A DNA stretch of 16,311 bases. Origin: a virus. Taxonomy: Duplodnaviria; Heunggongvirae; Uroviricota; Caudoviricetes. Under the pieces are notes generated by a model, which did not search any database, was not told where the DNA came from, and was given only the letters and a program-made list of their open reading frames with translations. Within the stretch, counting starts at the first letter, position 1; each line of letters begins with the position of its first letter. The stretch is taken from IMG/VR virus record IMGVR_UViG_3300013307_000018, positions 1 to 16,311 of that record, one strand, 5' to 3'. Of this stretch, positions 4,039 to 15,010 are shown piece after piece. The position numbers were made by a program, and so were the translations under genes.

Positions 4039-4068
4039 CGGCATAAAGGGCGAGGTCAACCCCCGCCC
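4039..4068 (-). terminator. terminator hairpin followed by TTTATGCCG
   Basis: On the minus strand GGGCGGGG-gttga-CCTCGCCC is followed by TTTATGCCG. Confidence 0.75.
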
Positions 4069-4079
4069 TGGTATAATGG

Positions 4080-4235
4080 TTATTGTGCGCTCTGACGCTG
4101 AAGGCTGTTCAGTCGCAGTTGCTGTTTGTAGCGGGCAATCATTTCCAGGTTCGTATTCTGTTTCTGTTTACGTTCCTGCACAAAGTTAGACTCAGATTCC
4201 TTCTGAAAGAACTTTGGGATAGATTGGGTTTGCAT
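4080..4235 (-). CDS. small Gln/Lys-rich hypothetical protein (51 aa, not in the ORF track)
   Basis: Read by hand: MQTQSIPKFFQKESESNFVQERKQKQNTNLEMIARYKQQLRLNSLQRQSAQ. It fills the gap between two hairpins, but the RBS is weak. Confidence 0.6.
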   Translation of the reverse strand: MQTQSIPKFFQKESESNFVQERKQKQNTNLEMIARYKQQLRLNSLQRQSAQ

Positions 4236-4260
4236 TGTGGTGGTCTCAAATGAAAAGGCA

Positions 4261-4275
4261 GTGGGACAACCCCAC
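4261..4275 (-). terminator. short hairpin after the 4297-4665 gene, possible weak terminator
   Basis: GTGGG-5 nt-CCCAC is followed on the minus strand by TGCCTTTTCATTT. Confidence 0.35.
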
Positions 4276-4296
4276 CATATGTTTTACGTCACGGGC

Positions 4297-4665
4297 TTAA
4301 CGCAGACGCTGGATGACGTAGGTTTGGGGTGCTCGTTCGAACTGACGGTGTTCAAAGTACGTATCCGCCCAGATACACATTCCAATACCGACGACCATGA
4401 AGGCACCCACAACGGCAAACAACATGCGAGTACCGCCATTGCCAGTCATTACGATACCGACATTTAACAGCGCTCTGGCCATTGGGGACGTTGAGTCACC
4501 GGTGGTGGGATGTGAACGACTGAGATAGCCCCAGACAAACACCACCACGCACACCACCAACAGCCAAAATACCGTCCACCAGAATACATGGAATTGGTGT
4601 TCGAACAACACCGTGCGTTCTGCCACTAAGGTGTTCAAGGTGGCTTCATCAATGACAAGTGACAT
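4297..4665 (-). CDS. membrane protein with two predicted TM segments (122 aa)
   Basis: Hydrophobic runs VFWWTVFWLLVVCVVVFVWGYL and MLFAVVGAFMVVGIGMCIWA. The start is coupled to the upstream stop (TGATG). Confidence 0.75.
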   Translation of the reverse strand: MSLVIDEATLNTLVAERTVLFEHQFHVFWWTVFWLLVVCVVVFVWGYLSRSHPTTGDSTSPMARALLNVGIVMTGNGGTRMLFAVVGAFMVVGIGMCIWADTYFEHRQFERAPQTYVIQRLR

Positions 4666-5150
4666 CAGGCCTTACCGTCCTTTGCTGTGAATGGCTTACG
4701 GTGTTTGCTGGAGAACATCAGCGTCGGGCTCACCGACTCCACCCGGCTTTTATCTGCACGGGACTTCACCATGGTCATCTGTAGTTCACCACGGCGTGCA
4801 CCGTTTTCTGGCTGGATGCCGATGAACACATCGGACTCAGTCAGTGAAAAGGTGCCGTGTTCACGATAGCGTGCCGCTTCTTCTTTCGAGATAGACCCGC
4901 GTTCTATCATCAACTGCAAATCCACGTTGCTGAATTTGATAGGTTTGATATCGGCCAGATAGGCATGACTGACGTCGTCGTCGATAACCACGTTACGACG
5001 GACACCCACCGCTTCACGGTCCCAGAACAGCTCGCCGCCTTCACGTTTCACCGGCTGGGCGATTTTGCCTTTGCTCACACGGATGCGCAGGGCTTTCACA
5101 GAAATATTCAGGTAGGTCGCCAGCTCTTTTGTTGCAATCAGGTTATTCAT
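4665..5150 (-). CDS. DNA-binding protein with an N-terminal AlpA/Xis (MerR-like winged) HTH (161 aa)
   Basis: LIATKELATYLNISVKALRIRVSKGKIAQPVKREGGELFWDREAV matches the L-x-x-x-E-x-A-x-x-L-x-x-S...P-x-K-x-G...W pattern. Confidence 0.7.
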   Translation of the reverse strand: MNNLIATKELATYLNISVKALRIRVSKGKIAQPVKREGGELFWDREAVGVRRNVVIDDDVSHAYLADIKPIKFSNVDLQLMIERGSISKEEAARYREHGTFSLTESDVFIGIQPENGARRGELQMTMVKSRADKSRVESVSPTLMFSSKHRKPFTAKDGKA

Positions 5151-5199
5151 TTTGTCATAATCCAGTTAAGAAAATTAAAAGACCCATTGTCTCACACCA

Positions 5200-5207
5200 G
5201 TAATATA
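5200..5207 (-). promoter_or_regulatory. candidate phiKZ-type early promoter core TATATTAC
   Basis: Exact TATATTAC on the minus strand, 50 nt upstream of the HTH gene ATG. This octamer is the known phiKZ early promoter core. Confidence 0.6.
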
Positions 5208-5236
5208 GACGCATAAATCTTTCATTTCATGTTTAA

Positions 5237-5275
5237 CGGCACAGATGCGGGATACAGCTTGCTGCCATATCCCGC
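5237..5275 (-). terminator. hairpin followed by ATC-TGTGCCG, a variant of the hairpin-TATGCCG module
   Basis: 8-bp stem GCGGGATA/TATCCCGC at 5247-5275, lying 22 nt after the stop of the 5297-5425 ORF. Confidence 0.55.
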
Positions 5276-5296
5276 GTTATCCCTGGTGAGGGCGTC

Positions 5297-5425
5297 TTAC
5301 CATTTACTGTACAGCCAATCTGTAACGAGTGGGGTGGTATATTTCAGTACCAATCCCGTGACCGCAACAATCGTCACGCACGTGATGGTTTTATCAATCA
5401 GGCGGTAGTGTTCTGATTTTGGCAT
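5297..5425 (-). CDS. small single-TM protein (42 aa, not in the ORF track)
   Basis: MPKSEHYRLIDKTITCVTIVAVTGLVLKYTTPLVTDWLYSKW. It has an AGGA RBS, an AATATTAC upstream and a hairpin downstream. Confidence 0.6.
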   Translation of the reverse strand: MPKSEHYRLIDKTITCVTIVAVTGLVLKYTTPLVTDWLYSKW

Positions 5426-5497
5426 TGTCGGTGTCCTGTTGAAGGTTATCATTATGTGGTAGTAGTGAGCGCATCGCTCAATAGATAAGCAATATCC

Positions 5498-5505
5498 GTA
5501 ATATT
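5498..5505 (-). promoter_or_regulatory. candidate early promoter core AATATTAC (one mismatch)
   Basis: Lies 73 nt upstream of the ATG at 5425 in AT-rich context. Confidence 0.35.
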
Positions 5506-5525
5506 TTACCCTCTAAGGAGCAGCT

Positions 5526-13461: not shown

Positions 13462-13484
13462 GTCTTTGTCTTCCGTTTAAAGAG

Positions 13485-13751
13485 TTAGATAACGTCCGCT
13501 GACAACAGCGCGACGATGATTAGTATCAGACGAATTACCAGCGTACTTAAGCACGCCAGCAGTGATGCGAGTACCCAGGTAAACACTGACCGGCGTCGCA
13601 CGAAGCGGTCGATAGCATAAATGAGGGTGGCAATCATAACGGCTGCCGTGAGTATCACGCAGCTGAGTAAGCCACTGTGTCGCGTGCAATAGAGCGCGAC
13701 CACTCCCACCAGTACATAGAAGAACACAAACGACAACAGACGTTGACGCAT
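13485..13751 (-). CDS. small membrane protein with about three TM segments (88 aa)
   Basis: AGGA RBS and three hydrophobic runs separated by basic residues. Confidence 0.75.
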   Translation of the reverse strand: MRQRLLSFVFFYVLVGVVALYCTRHSGLLSCVILTAAVMIATLIYAIDRFVRRRSVFTWVLASLLACLSTLVIRLILIIVALLSADVI

Positions 13752-13829
13752 TTTATTTTCCTTTCAGGTCATCAGACGCAAGGTAAATGGTTTCGTGGGA
13801 GTGAATTTATACTCACTTCTATCCAATAC

Positions 13830-13847
13830 GTGATATACGTTTTTATA
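13830..13847 (-). promoter_or_regulatory. candidate early promoter AAACGTATATCAC
   Basis: Second copy of the 13-mer, in AT-rich DNA directly downstream of a terminator. Confidence 0.6.
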
Positions 13848-13865
13848 TATTTCATTTCAACTTTA

Positions 13866-13893
13866 CGGCATAACAGGGAGGCCGAAGCCTCCC
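13866..13893 (-). terminator. UUCG hairpin followed by TGT-TATGCCG
   Basis: GGGAGGC-TTCG-GCCTCCC at 13876-13893, identical to the stems at 10765 and 12522. Confidence 0.75.
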
Positions 13894-13902
13894 CGACTAG
13901 AG

Positions 13903-14055
13903 CTACTGCGATTGCTTCAAAATCACGACCTCGCCTTTTTCACGGCTGGGTAGTGGAATGTTGGTTCGGGCTACGCAAAGCGCCTCGTAGGACACACGGG
14001 TGTCTTCTGGACGCGTTTGACGAGGTAGGTCTAATGGGATTGCTGTGTTCGTCAT
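13903..14055 (-). CDS. small hypothetical protein (50 aa, not in the ORF track)
   Basis: MTNTAIPLDLPRQTRPEDTRVSYEALCVARTNIPLPSREKGEVVILKQSQ. It has an AAGG RBS and ends just before a terminator. Confidence 0.5.
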   Translation of the reverse strand: MTNTAIPLDLPRQTRPEDTRVSYEALCVARTNIPLPSREKGEVVILKQSQ

Positions 14056-14063
14056 AAGTGACC

Positions 14064-14471
14064 TTAAGCGAGCGTCATCCGGGCACCGTTGTACCGCACT
14101 GTTTGGGTGATGGTATTGGAGCGCATGGACTGGCTCGTGATGGTAAGAACGGTATCCGTACCCTCACGGTGTACTTGAATCAACGGCGGGACAATCCGAA
14201 CCGAGTTGCCAGCTGCAGCAACCATGATCGCAATATCCGCCAGTTTGTCCAGGTACGATTTGGTTTGTTCTGTGTCAATCCCCCCAGGTTGTTTTGCTGT
14301 GAGTATCGCATATTCCCGAAAGGCTTCTGCAAGAGATTCAATGATAGAGGTCTCCACCGCCCGAACGCGTGCCACACGTCGAGAGTTGGAATTACTCAGG
14401 TTTCGCAGATTGAGCAGGATGTCTATCACAATCAACACGAGTATCAAGATTTGCAGGTCTAAACGCGGCAT
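14064..14471 (-). CDS. N-terminally membrane-anchored hypothetical protein (135 aa)
   Basis: GGGAG RBS. TM-like segment LQILILVLIVIDILLNL. Confidence 0.75.
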   Translation of the reverse strand: MPRLDLQILILVLIVIDILLNLRNLSNSNSRRVARVRAVETSIIESLAEAFREYAILTAKQPGGIDTEQTKSYLDKLADIAIMVAAAGNSVRIVPPLIQVHREGTDTVLTITSQSMRSNTITQTVRYNGARMTLA

Positions 14472-14517
14472 ATAGTCGTACTCCCACTAAAAGAAAAAAG
14501 GAAGGGTACTTACAGCA

Positions 14518-14537
14518 GGTTCCTCCGAAGAGGAACC
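14518..14537 (-). terminator. UUCG-loop terminator
   Basis: GGTTCCTC-TTCG-GAGGAACC, located after the stop at 14546. Confidence 0.75.
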
Positions 14538-14545
14538 CTATCTGA

Positions 14546-14959
14546 TTACTGGGATAACCCAACAGTCAGAAGATACAGCTGTCGCATGAGTATTTCGCTA
14601 TCGTGCTTATACTTCTCTGGTACGGTGACTGTATAGACAACGTGGTTAACTTGATGGTCAAAGTGTGCCGCGTATTCCCCAATCACTAAACCGTGCACCG
14701 AGAACTCGGCTTTGGTAACAAAGTACGCAGGCGAGACTTTAAAGTCAGCTGGCAGATACGACATGGGCGAAGGCGGGTACCCTGGGTATTGCTCAATAGC
14801 AAGCTCTACACGCAGGCGTCCCGAATCCACCGCATTATTGTCAGCCACTTTTCCGTCCACGACCATGTGACCGAATTCCGGGCTTTCAAACAGCGTCACG
14901 TTACGAGTGCTATGGAGTTCCATGACATTGTTACGTGGCACTTTCGCTTTAAACTTCAT
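14546..14959 (-). CDS. hypothetical protein (137 aa)
   Basis: GGAG RBS and flanking terminators. Confidence 0.8.
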   Translation of the reverse strand: MKFKAKVPRNNVMELHSTRNVTLFESPEFGHMVVDGKVADNNAVDSGRLRVELAIEQYPGYPPSPMSYLPADFKVSPAYFVTKAEFSVHGLVIGEYAAHFDHQVNHVVYTVTVPEKYKHDSEILMRQLYLLTVGLSQ

Positions 14960-14978
14960 CTTTTACTCCAATAAAGAA

Positions 14979-15010
14979 CGGCATAAAAGGGCGGGGTTTT
15001 ATCCCCACCC
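14979..15010 (-). terminator. terminator hairpin followed by TTT-TATGCCG, directly downstream of the tRNA-like gene
   Basis: On the minus strand GGGTGGGG-6 nt-CCCCGCCC is followed by TTTTATGCCG. Confidence 0.75.

What the first reader, a model, noticed from the sequence alone, without database searches (positions are those of the whole stretch)
4039..14988. Conserved TATGCCG heptamer 2-3 nt after terminator hairpins on both strands
Seen in sequence: exact TATGCCG follows a hairpin stem at 4039-4045 (-), 8813-8819 (+), 9448-9454 (+), 12512-12518 (-), 13866-13872 (-) and 14979-14985 (-). Variants occur at 5237 (TGTGCCG), 9456 (TTTGCCG) and 10755 (CTGGCCG). The stems differ in sequence while the heptamer and its spacing persist, and several hairpins have no proper U-tract (spacers ATC, TGT). 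Established: phiKZ-like phages encode two multisubunit RNAPs, and phiKZ late promoters contain TATG at the start site. Inference: this is a sequence-dependent termination signal for a phage RNAP, a fused terminator/late-promoter module, or an RNA 3'-end processing or protein-binding site. I cannot tell whether it has been described.
Basis: partly seen in the sequence, partly recalled or inferred. Interest (0 to 1): 0.7.

Follow-up and report, generated by a model that had tools for sequence, protein, structure and literature searches.

The report
Jumbo-phage terminator hairpins with TATGCCG tail
The repeated TATGCCG just after hairpins is real, but it is this uncultivated giant (phiKZ-like) phage's version of a transcription stop signal already mapped in phage phiKZ, so it marks where genes end rather than where they start, and the finding is largely ordinary.

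Summary
Observation confirmed. TATGCCG occurs 10 times in the window against 1.5 expected. All six named sites lie 1-3 nt after a stable GC hairpin.

The window is the start of a 186-kb phiKZ-like (Chimalliviridae) phage record. Genome-wide, TAT[G/T]YYG follows 28 of 260 hairpin sides (0.96 expected). The consensus T(0-3)-TAT-K-Y-Y-G-T equals the conserved phiKZ terminator motif YTTATKYYGT (Putzeys 2024, PMC10914365; also 201phi2-1). This scan has reached the same verdict on several other jumbo-phage genomes.

Placement fits a terminator, not a promoter:
- 18 of 21 sites follow a co-directional stop codon.
- 11 of 12 convergent gene junctions carry it, against 1 of 12 divergent junctions. This repeats in a complete relative and in phiKZ.
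- A relative keeps all six window sites: heptamer 41/42 identical, flanks 69%, stems rewritten.

Added here:
- Units started by early-promoter-like sites mostly end at ordinary U-tract terminators, while other units end at the TATG type (odds ratio about 7 in three genomes).
- The phage encodes a homologue of phiKZ gp123, the non-virion polymerase subunit that binds non-template TATG.
- So the tail may be a pause or stop element tuned to that polymerase. This is inference only.

Novelty: a new member of a known kind.

The parts
4039..4069 (-). Terminator 1. Hairpin 4047-4069, spacer T, heptamer TATGCCG 4039-4045. It follows small ORF 4080-4235 and lies 15 nt before the ATG (4027) of gene 3677-4027.
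   Evidence: -17.7 to -18.3 kcal/mol. The orthologous site in relative L009 has a different stem and the same heptamer.
8790..8819 (+). Terminator 2. Hairpin 8790-8811, spacer T, heptamer 8813-8819. It lies between two paralogous virion-structural genes (8188-8763 and 8865-9416).
9427..9454 (+). Terminator 3. Hairpin 9427-9446, spacer T, heptamer 9448-9454. It sits at a convergent junction with no co-directional gene downstream. The opposing U-tract terminator is at 9473-9502 (-).
   Evidence: The same convergent-junction site is kept in L009 and in Eowyn L010 15094-15120.
12512..12539 (-). Terminator 4. Hairpin 12522-12539, spacer ATC, heptamer 12512-12518. It follows gene 12546-12797 and is followed by the early-promoter-like site 12466-12503.
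13866..13893 (-). Terminator 5. Hairpin 13876-13893 (extendable by 2 bp), spacer TGT or T, heptamer 13866-13872. It is followed at once by the early-promoter-like site 13830-13867.
   Evidence: The relative has TATGTCG here (a Y-to-Y change).
14979..15011 (-). Terminator 6. Hairpin 14988-15011, spacer TT, heptamer 14979-14985. It lies downstream of the tRNA-like RNA at 15020-15121 and 23 nt before the ATG (14959) of gene 14546-14959.
5237..5275 (-). Variant terminator. Hairpin 5247-5275, spacer ATC, TGTGCCG 5237-5243. It abuts the early-promoter-like site 5200-5237.
10755..10783 (-). Variant terminator. Hairpin 10764-10783, spacer GG, CTGGCCG 10755-10761, then a T-run.
12997..13014 (-). Ordinary U-tract terminator (hairpin followed by TATTTTTTTG). 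It is the first terminator after the early-promoter-like site at 13830. It is listed as an example of the contrasting class; others are 115-138, 9473-9502 and 11870-11887.
12466..12503 (-). Early-promoter-like site (AAATAAA-N9-AAACGTATATCAC, like the phiKZ early core TATATTAC). Companion sites are at 5200-5237 and 13830-13867.
   Evidence: 17 sites genome-wide, all on the - strand; phiKZ comparison

Best explanation
The heptamer is the 3' tail of this phage's phiKZ-type intrinsic transcription terminator: a GC-rich stem-loop, 0-3 T, then TAT-K-Y-Y-G-T.

Shown here:
- The element sits at gene ends, whatever lies downstream.
- It is under sequence-specific selection.
- It is shared across distant Chimalliviridae.

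Taken from the literature: in phiKZ and 201phi2-1, RNA 3' ends map to this motif.

Inferred mechanism:
- The stable hairpin plus the short UUUAU stretch destabilises the elongation complex.
- The GYYG part holds the polymerase at the usual release distance. The conserved Y-G step lies 7-10 nt past the stem.
- This substitutes for the missing distal U-tract. The hairpins of this class are stronger than those of the U-tract class.
- The tail contains TATG, the tetramer that the beta-lobe of the non-virion RNA polymerase binds on the non-template strand at promoters. TATG-type terminators close mainly non-early units.
- So the tail may be a pause or stop element tuned to that polymerase.
For: Enrichment and consensus:
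- 28 of 260 hairpin sides against 0.96 expected.
- Position counts for 38 terminator-oriented hairpins give TAT, K (19 G / 17 T), Y, Y, G, T.
- This equals the published phiKZ motif.

Placement:
- 18 of 21 sites follow a co-directional stop codon, typically 7-28 nt away.
- None lies inside a gene and none at a promoter-only position.
- Convergent junctions with TATGYYG: 11/12 in G000, 13/21 in G001 and 15/20 in phiKZ.
- Divergent junctions with TATGYYG: 1/12, 4/20 and 1/19.

Selection:
- Across six orthologous sites in L009 the heptamer is 41/42 identical, against 69% and 68% in the flanks.
- All hairpins are kept with changed stems.

Breadth: TATG after hairpins is enriched 8-13 fold in seven chimalliviruses and not in T4.

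Hairpin strength: TATG-type hairpins are more stable than U-type (medians -14.5 vs -12.4, p=0.001, and -16.3 vs -13.2, p=0.003).

Terminator class against early units:
- The first terminator after an early-promoter-like site is U-type 10:2 in G000, 13:3 in G001 and 9:5 in phiKZ.
- The other terminators are 11:17, 16:26 and 9:35 (Fisher p = 0.016, 0.007, 0.006).
- This is not explained by flank AT content.

Polymerase:
- A gp123 homologue lies at 175915-177537, 30% identical.
- 8 of 14 residues of the TATG pocket are identical and 2 are conservative.
Against: - No RNA ends were measured for this phage.
- Termination against 3' processing cannot be separated from sequence.
- The pause and polymerase-specificity steps are inference. 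No paper I read proposes them.
- Some 201phi2-1 terminators, motif-bearing ones included, work with host RNA polymerase in uninfected Pseudomonas. So the element need not be specific to the phage polymerase.
- Four of the 14 pocket residues differ.
- The class split is a tendency, not a rule. It rests on my own crude gene calls and a pattern-based early-promoter set. G000 and G001 are related, so they are not independent tests.
- A few motifs face antisense to both neighbouring genes (39781, 68938, 159471).
- Klebsiella phage KpLz-2_45 keeps TATG but not YYG.
Confidence: 0.8

Rival explanations
1. Stop-and-restart module. The hairpin ends the upstream transcript, and the non-virion polymerase re-initiates at the G of the adjoining TATG, as at phiKZ late promoters, to drive the next gene.
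For: - TATG with G as +1 is the phiKZ late-promoter core, and it is necessary for initiation in vitro.
- The polymerase pocket that reads it is largely conserved here.
- At some tandem sites the next gene starts 13-28 nt downstream with a good ribosome site (4045, 14985, 54456, 164296, 184030).
Against: - 11 of 12 convergent junctions carry the motif although nothing lies downstream to express. Divergent junctions, where promoters must exist, almost never carry it.
- TATGCCG without a hairpin is at chance level, and intergenic TATG is not enriched overall (178 against 175 expected).
- The distance to the next co-directional start varies from 20 to 875 nt.
- Two window sites are followed by their own early-promoter-like site.
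- The validated phiKZ late promoter P119L has no hairpin and no YYG.
Confidence: 0.1
2. RNA-level site. Hairpin-UAUGCCGU is a recognition site for an endoribonuclease, or for an RNA-binding protein (3'-end formation, stabilisation, or export from the phage nucleus), and not a signal read by the polymerase.
For: - The placement at 3' ends and the sequence-specific conservation would fit equally well.
- The published 3'-end maps do not separate termination from processing.
Against: - If transcripts end within the tail, as with ordinary intrinsic terminators, the RNA would not carry the whole motif.
- The motif grades into plain U-tract terminators, with K = T variants such as TATTCCGT and TATTTCGT.
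- No candidate factor was identified.
- Phage terminators of this family terminate in a reporter assay in uninfected cells.
Confidence: 0.09
3. Chance or compositional by-product of GC-rich palindromes.
For: Four of the ten window copies are indeed unrelated to hairpins.
Against: - Shuffles never reach the observed count.
- The hairpin association has P about 1e-31.
- The heptamer is conserved in orthologous sites while the stems change.
- The association is absent in T4.
Confidence: 0.01

Closest known systems
Conserved intrinsic terminator motif of Pseudomonas phage phiKZ (Putzeys et al. 2024, microLife, PMC10914365; 61 mapped terminators). Terminator motif A of phage 201phi2-1 (PMC11512511) is reported to resemble it strongly.
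   Same: - GC-rich stem-loop followed by Y-TTAT-K-YY-G-T.
- Sits after gene ends, and is often two-sided between convergent genes.
- The host is a phage with a virion and a non-virion multisubunit RNA polymerase.
- My own scan of phiKZ finds the same architecture and the same junction bias.
   Different: - Here YY is nearly always CC (TATGCCG), in a 52% GC enterobacterial-type lineage near Eowyn. phiKZ mostly has TC, TT or CT.
- Here the 5' arm of the stem is purine-rich (GGGAGG...) and the 3' arm pyrimidine-rich, the reverse of the phiKZ consensus (CCYCCCC...GGGRRGG).
- No RNA-end data exist for this phage.
phiKZ late promoter (TATG with G as +1, read by the beta-lobe of gp123; Yakunina 2015 PMC4666361; IUCrJ 2026 PMC12809450)
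   Same: The same tetramer TATG. The phage has a gp123 homologue with most pocket residues kept.
   Different: - The placement is at gene ends and convergent junctions, not upstream of late genes.
- It is tied to a hairpin and to a YYGT extension, both of which the validated promoter P119L lacks.
Canonical bacterial intrinsic terminator (hairpin plus 7-9 nt U-tract)
   Same: A stable GC hairpin directly followed by a short U-rich stretch (UUUAU). The phage also uses ordinary U-tract terminators.
   Different: - The distal U-tract is replaced by a conserved GCCGU.
- None of the six window sites passes a standard U-tract scan.

Membership tests
phiKZ-type conserved terminator (stem-loop + YTTATKYYGT) | Compact GC-rich stem-loop | tested here: met
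   Six window hairpins of -13 to -18 kcal/mol. Genome-wide there are 130 compact hairpins.
phiKZ-type conserved terminator (stem-loop + YTTATKYYGT) | Tail Y-TTAT-K-YY-G-T directly after the stem | tested here: met
   Position counts over 38 sites give TAT, G19/T17, Y34, Y32, G23, T24. The spacer is 0-3 nt.
phiKZ-type conserved terminator (stem-loop + YTTATKYYGT) | Located after 3' ends of genes, including two-sided use between convergent genes | tested here: met
   18 of 21 sites follow co-directional stop codons. 11 of 12 convergent junctions carry the motif. This rests on my own gene calls.
phiKZ-type conserved terminator (stem-loop + YTTATKYYGT) | RNA 3' ends map to the element during infection | not testable with these tools
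   The phage is uncultivated, and the supplementary end tables of the phiKZ and 201phi2-1 papers are not held.
phiKZ-type conserved terminator (stem-loop + YTTATKYYGT) | Host genome is a phiKZ-like phage with its own multisubunit RNA polymerases | tested here: met
   - Homologue of nvRNAP subunit gp123 (E 4e-80) and of the phiKZ major head protein.
- The helicase is nearest to Eowyn.
- Pfam RNAP models do not detect these divergent subunits.
- A virion-polymerase gene was not sought; the record is about 69% complete.
phiKZ late promoter (TATG, G = +1) | TATG core | tested here: met
   Present by definition of the heptamer.
phiKZ late promoter (TATG, G = +1) | Lies upstream of, and co-oriented with, the genes it drives, including at divergent junctions | tested here: not met
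   Divergent junctions with TATGYYG are 1/12, 4/20 and 1/19, against convergent 11/12, 13/21 and 15/20.
phiKZ late promoter (TATG, G = +1) | Primary transcripts start at the G | not testable with these tools
   No 5'-end data are available.
Canonical intrinsic terminator | U-tract (at least 5 T in 8) right after the stem | tested here: not met
   None of the six sites is reported in the motif's orientation by the consensus scan.

The most novel reading that the evidence does not exclude
The TATG in the terminator tail may be a polymerase-specific stop element.

- The beta-lobe pocket of the non-virion RNA polymerase reads non-template TATG at late promoters.
- The same pocket would catch the tetramer during elongation and hold the enzyme a few nucleotides past a strong hairpin.
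- That would give termination without a U-tract.

On this reading a chimallivirus uses two terminator dialects. Units transcribed by the virion enzyme (early) would use U-tract terminators, and units transcribed by the non-virion enzyme (middle and late) would use hairpin-TTATGYYGT.

The class split (odds ratio about 7 in three genomes, two distant lineages) and the conserved pocket are compatible with this, but neither shows it.
Probability: 0.25. Interest if true: 0.7.

Novelty: new member of a known kind. Interest (0 to 1): 0.27.

Why it matters
Practical value. Standard terminator predictors require a U-tract and miss these sites, so knowing the hairpin-TTATGYYGT signature lets transcription units be drawn in the many uncultivated phiKZ-like genomes.

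Biological value. The signature is kept from Pseudomonas to Klebsiella, Ralstonia and Xanthomonas phages (37-54% GC), which points to a constraint imposed by the phage's own transcription machinery.

If the class split is real and tied to the polymerase, it would give a simple and testable account of how two phage polymerases are kept to their own gene sets. It would also show a promoter-recognition pocket being reused for termination.

Tried and rejected
- Promoter reading: rejected on the junction distribution and on the lack of hairpin-free copies.
- Bipartite idea (a separate CCGT box after any terminator): rejected. CCGT is not enriched after U-tract terminators (2 against 1.9 expected).
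- A de novo late-promoter signal from intergenic TATG: none found (178 against 175 expected).
- Close relatives through the structural protein 8188-8763: none in viral contigs. The helicase gave one.
- Nucleotide search of the window against deposited phages: no match.
- Pfam RNA polymerase models on the genome: no hit, as expected for these divergent subunits. A tblastn with phiKZ gp123 worked.
- Experimental start and end tables for phiKZ and 201phi2-1, and the Ceyssens 2014 paper: not held. So I could not check whether mapped late starts coincide with terminator TATGs.
- Function of the genes preceding each terminator class by PHROGs gave only a weak trend. The TATG type follows the major head protein, virion proteins, a DnaB-like helicase, an SbcC-like protein and thymidylate kinase. 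The U-type follows mostly genes with no PHROG match, plus a depolymerase.
- Rfam and tRNA scans of the window: nothing.
- Flank base composition as an explanation of the class split: rejected.

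
Full report
**What the window is**

The window is the first 16.3 kb of a 185,970-bp virus record (52% GC, estimated 69% complete).
- Its 709-aa helicase is most like those of Klebsiella phage vB_KvM-Eowyn and Serratia/Klebsiella phages KpHz_2 and KpGz_1 (53-54% identity). 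More than 200 phiKZ-like jumbo phages follow.
- The record encodes a homologue of phiKZ gp123, the beta-like subunit of the non-virion RNA polymerase (30% identity over 551 residues, E 4e-80), and of the phiKZ major head protein.

**The observation**

TATGCCG occurs 10 times in the window, against 1.54 expected. No shuffle reaches 10.
Each lies 1-3 nt after a compact GC hairpin of -13 to -18 kcal/mol.
- Of the remaining four copies, three are inside ORFs without a hairpin. One (14466) is simply ATG-CCG, the start of gene 14064-14471, and a relative keeps it as coding sequence.
- Genome-wide there are 38 copies against 23 for the reversed control. About 20 of them follow strong hairpins, which is the whole excess.

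**Widening the motif**

I started from hairpins rather than from the heptamer.
- TAT[G/T]YYG begins within a few nucleotides of the stem on 28 of 260 oriented hairpin sides (0.96 expected).
- I aligned 38 terminator-oriented hairpins on TAT. The next positions are K (19 G, 17 T), Y, Y, G, T.
- This is the motif that Putzeys et al. reported for 61 mapped intrinsic terminators of phiKZ: a stem-loop followed by YTTATKYYGT. The 201phi2-1 study reports a terminator motif A that strongly resembles the phiKZ one.
- My own scan of phiKZ shows the same architecture.
- So the element has been described. TATGCCG is the local spelling of TATKYYG.

**Terminator or promoter**

I used my own gene calls (226 genes, 89% coding).
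- 18 of 21 TATG-type sites follow a co-directional stop codon, typically 7-28 nt away.
- 7 of the 21 lie at convergent junctions. 3 are the antisense arm of two-sided terminators.
- None is inside a gene and none at a promoter-only position.

TATGYYG by junction type:

| Genome | Convergent junctions | Divergent junctions |
|---|---|---|
| G000 (this phage) | 11 of 12 | 1 of 12 |
| G001 (complete 278-kb relative) | 13 of 21 | 4 of 20 |
| phiKZ | 15 of 20 | 1 of 19 |

Further points against a promoter:
- Hairpin-free TATGCCG is at chance level, and intergenic TATG as a whole is not enriched (178 against 175).
- The distance to the next co-directional start ranges from 20 to 875 nt.
- Two window sites (12512, 13866) are followed by their own early-promoter-like element.
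- The validated phiKZ late promoter P119L, at a divergent junction, has TATG without a hairpin or a YYG extension.

The element therefore behaves as a stop signal that travels with the upstream gene.

**Selection and breadth**

One uncultivated relative (IMGVR_UViG_3300045450_000109; helicase 75% identical) keeps all six window sites.
- The heptamer is 41 of 42 positions identical, and the one change is C to T.
- The 30 nt upstream and the 20 nt downstream are 69% and 68% identical.
- Every hairpin is retained with a different stem sequence.
- Eowyn keeps the convergent-junction site after the structural genes.

TATG just after hairpins is enriched 8-13 fold in this phage, in that relative, and in Eowyn, phiKZ, Ralstonia RP12, Xanthomonas LucasX and Klebsiella KpLz-2_45. 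It is not enriched in T4. The YYG extension is present in all of these except KpLz-2_45, whose tails read TATGAC/CTTTT.

**What I add**

An AT-rich motif (AAATAAA-N9-AAACGTATATTAC) resembles the phiKZ early-promoter core TATATTAC.
- It occurs 17 times, all on the minus strand, and three times in the window.
- In phiKZ, TATATTAC occurs 33 times forward and 9 times reverse.

Terminator class, given as U-tract type: TATG type:

| Genome | First terminator after an early-promoter-like site | Remaining sense terminators | Fisher p | Odds ratio |
|---|---|---|---|---|
| G000 | 10 : 2 | 11 : 17 | 0.016 | 7.7 |
| G001 | 13 : 3 | 16 : 26 | 0.007 | 7.0 |
| phiKZ | 9 : 5 | 9 : 35 | 0.006 | 7.0 |

- The strand without early promoters is dominated by the TATG type (phiKZ 16:1, G001 8:2, G000 6:3).
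- Flank AT content does not differ between the two classes.
- TATG-type hairpins are more stable than U-type ones in G000 and G001, with a trend in phiKZ. That fits compensation for a short U stretch.
- TATG-type terminators close the major head protein, several virion proteins, a DnaB-like helicase, an SbcC-like protein and thymidylate kinase. U-type ones mostly follow genes with no PHROG match. This is a trend only.

**Mechanism, marked as inference**

- A 2026 cryo-EM study shows that phiKZ gp123 holds non-template T-3 A-2 T-1 G+1 in a pocket under the beta-lobe.
- Of the 14 side chains named there, 8 are identical and 2 conservative in this phage's homologue, against 30% overall identity.
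- The same pocket could therefore catch TATG during elongation and stall the enzyme just past a strong hairpin.
- With a spacer of 0-3 nt, the conserved Y-G step falls 7-10 nt after the stem. That is the usual release distance of intrinsic terminators and resembles the pyrimidine-then-G step of bacterial elemental pauses. The bacterial comparison is my own knowledge.
- None of this is shown.
- Against strict polymerase specificity, some 201phi2-1 terminators work with host polymerase in uninfected cells.

**Verdict**

- The element is a new instance of a published terminator motif.
- Earlier reports of this scan reached the same conclusion on other jumbo-phage genomes. I consulted those reports only after my own analysis.
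- The terminator-class split and the link to the gp123 pocket are the only parts that may be new. Both need RNA-end data or in vitro transcription.

Noticed in passing
window 5200-5237, 12466-12503, 13830-13867 (all - strand); 17 sites genome-wide: Early-promoter-like motif AAATAAA-N9-AAACGTATAT(T/C)AC, found only on the minus strand of the record. It resembles the phiKZ early core TATATTAC (33 forward against 9 reverse copies in phiKZ). Several copies sit directly after a terminator.
   Followed up: partly
G000, G001 (L047-L060) and phiKZ (L061-L074), genome-wide: Units begun by early-promoter-like sites end mostly at U-tract terminators, while other units end at hairpin-TTATGYYGT (odds ratio about 7 in each of the three genomes). 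I found no mention of this in the papers read or in earlier notes of this scan.
   Followed up: partly
G000:C1:175915-177537 (-): Homologue of phiKZ gp123, the non-virion polymerase subunit that binds TATG. Eight of the 14 published pocket residues are identical (S144, F151, H185, N186, K190, H331, S334, Q466) and two are conservative (K158R, Y406W).
   Followed up: partly
window 14466-14472 (-): This TATGCCG copy is the start codon context (Met-Pro) of gene 14064-14471, preceded by a GGGAG ribosome site. The relative L009 has the same coding start. It is a coincidence with the terminator heptamer.
   Followed up: yes
window 8188-8763 and 8865-9416 (+): Two adjacent paralogous virion-structural genes (PHROG 1037 and 2935), each with its own TATGCCG terminator. 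The longer ORF call 8781-9416 runs through the first terminator hairpin and is probably too long.
   Followed up: partly
window 9448-9502: Two opposed terminators 25 nt apart share one near-palindromic spacer. The plus strand reads hairpin-TTATGCCGACGGCAAAATAAAAG. The minus strand reads hairpin-TTTTTCTTTTATTTTGCCGTCGGCATA.
   Followed up: no
G000:C1:39761-39778, 68915-68934, 159448-159469; Eowyn L010 10886-10908: A few TATG-type tails face antisense to both neighbouring genes. In two cases they form the back side of a U-tract terminator. They may stop antisense transcripts, but this is unexplained.
   Followed up: no
phiKZ L061-L074, e.g. record positions about 2140, 108040, 120640: In phiKZ the terminator tail often runs straight into the early promoter (...TTATGTCGTATATTCAAAC...). 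Part of the published YYGT conservation there may therefore overlap the upstream edge of early promoters.
   Followed up: no
Klebsiella phage KpLz-2_45, L014: This chimallivirus keeps TATG after its terminator hairpins (9 against 0.9 expected) but replaces the YYG extension with AC/C followed by a T-run.
   Followed up: partly
G000:C1:86194: The roughly 420-nt structured RNA reported earlier in this genome lies in the gap that ends at a TATGCCG-type terminator (hairpin of about -25 kcal/mol) at a convergent junction.
   Followed up: no
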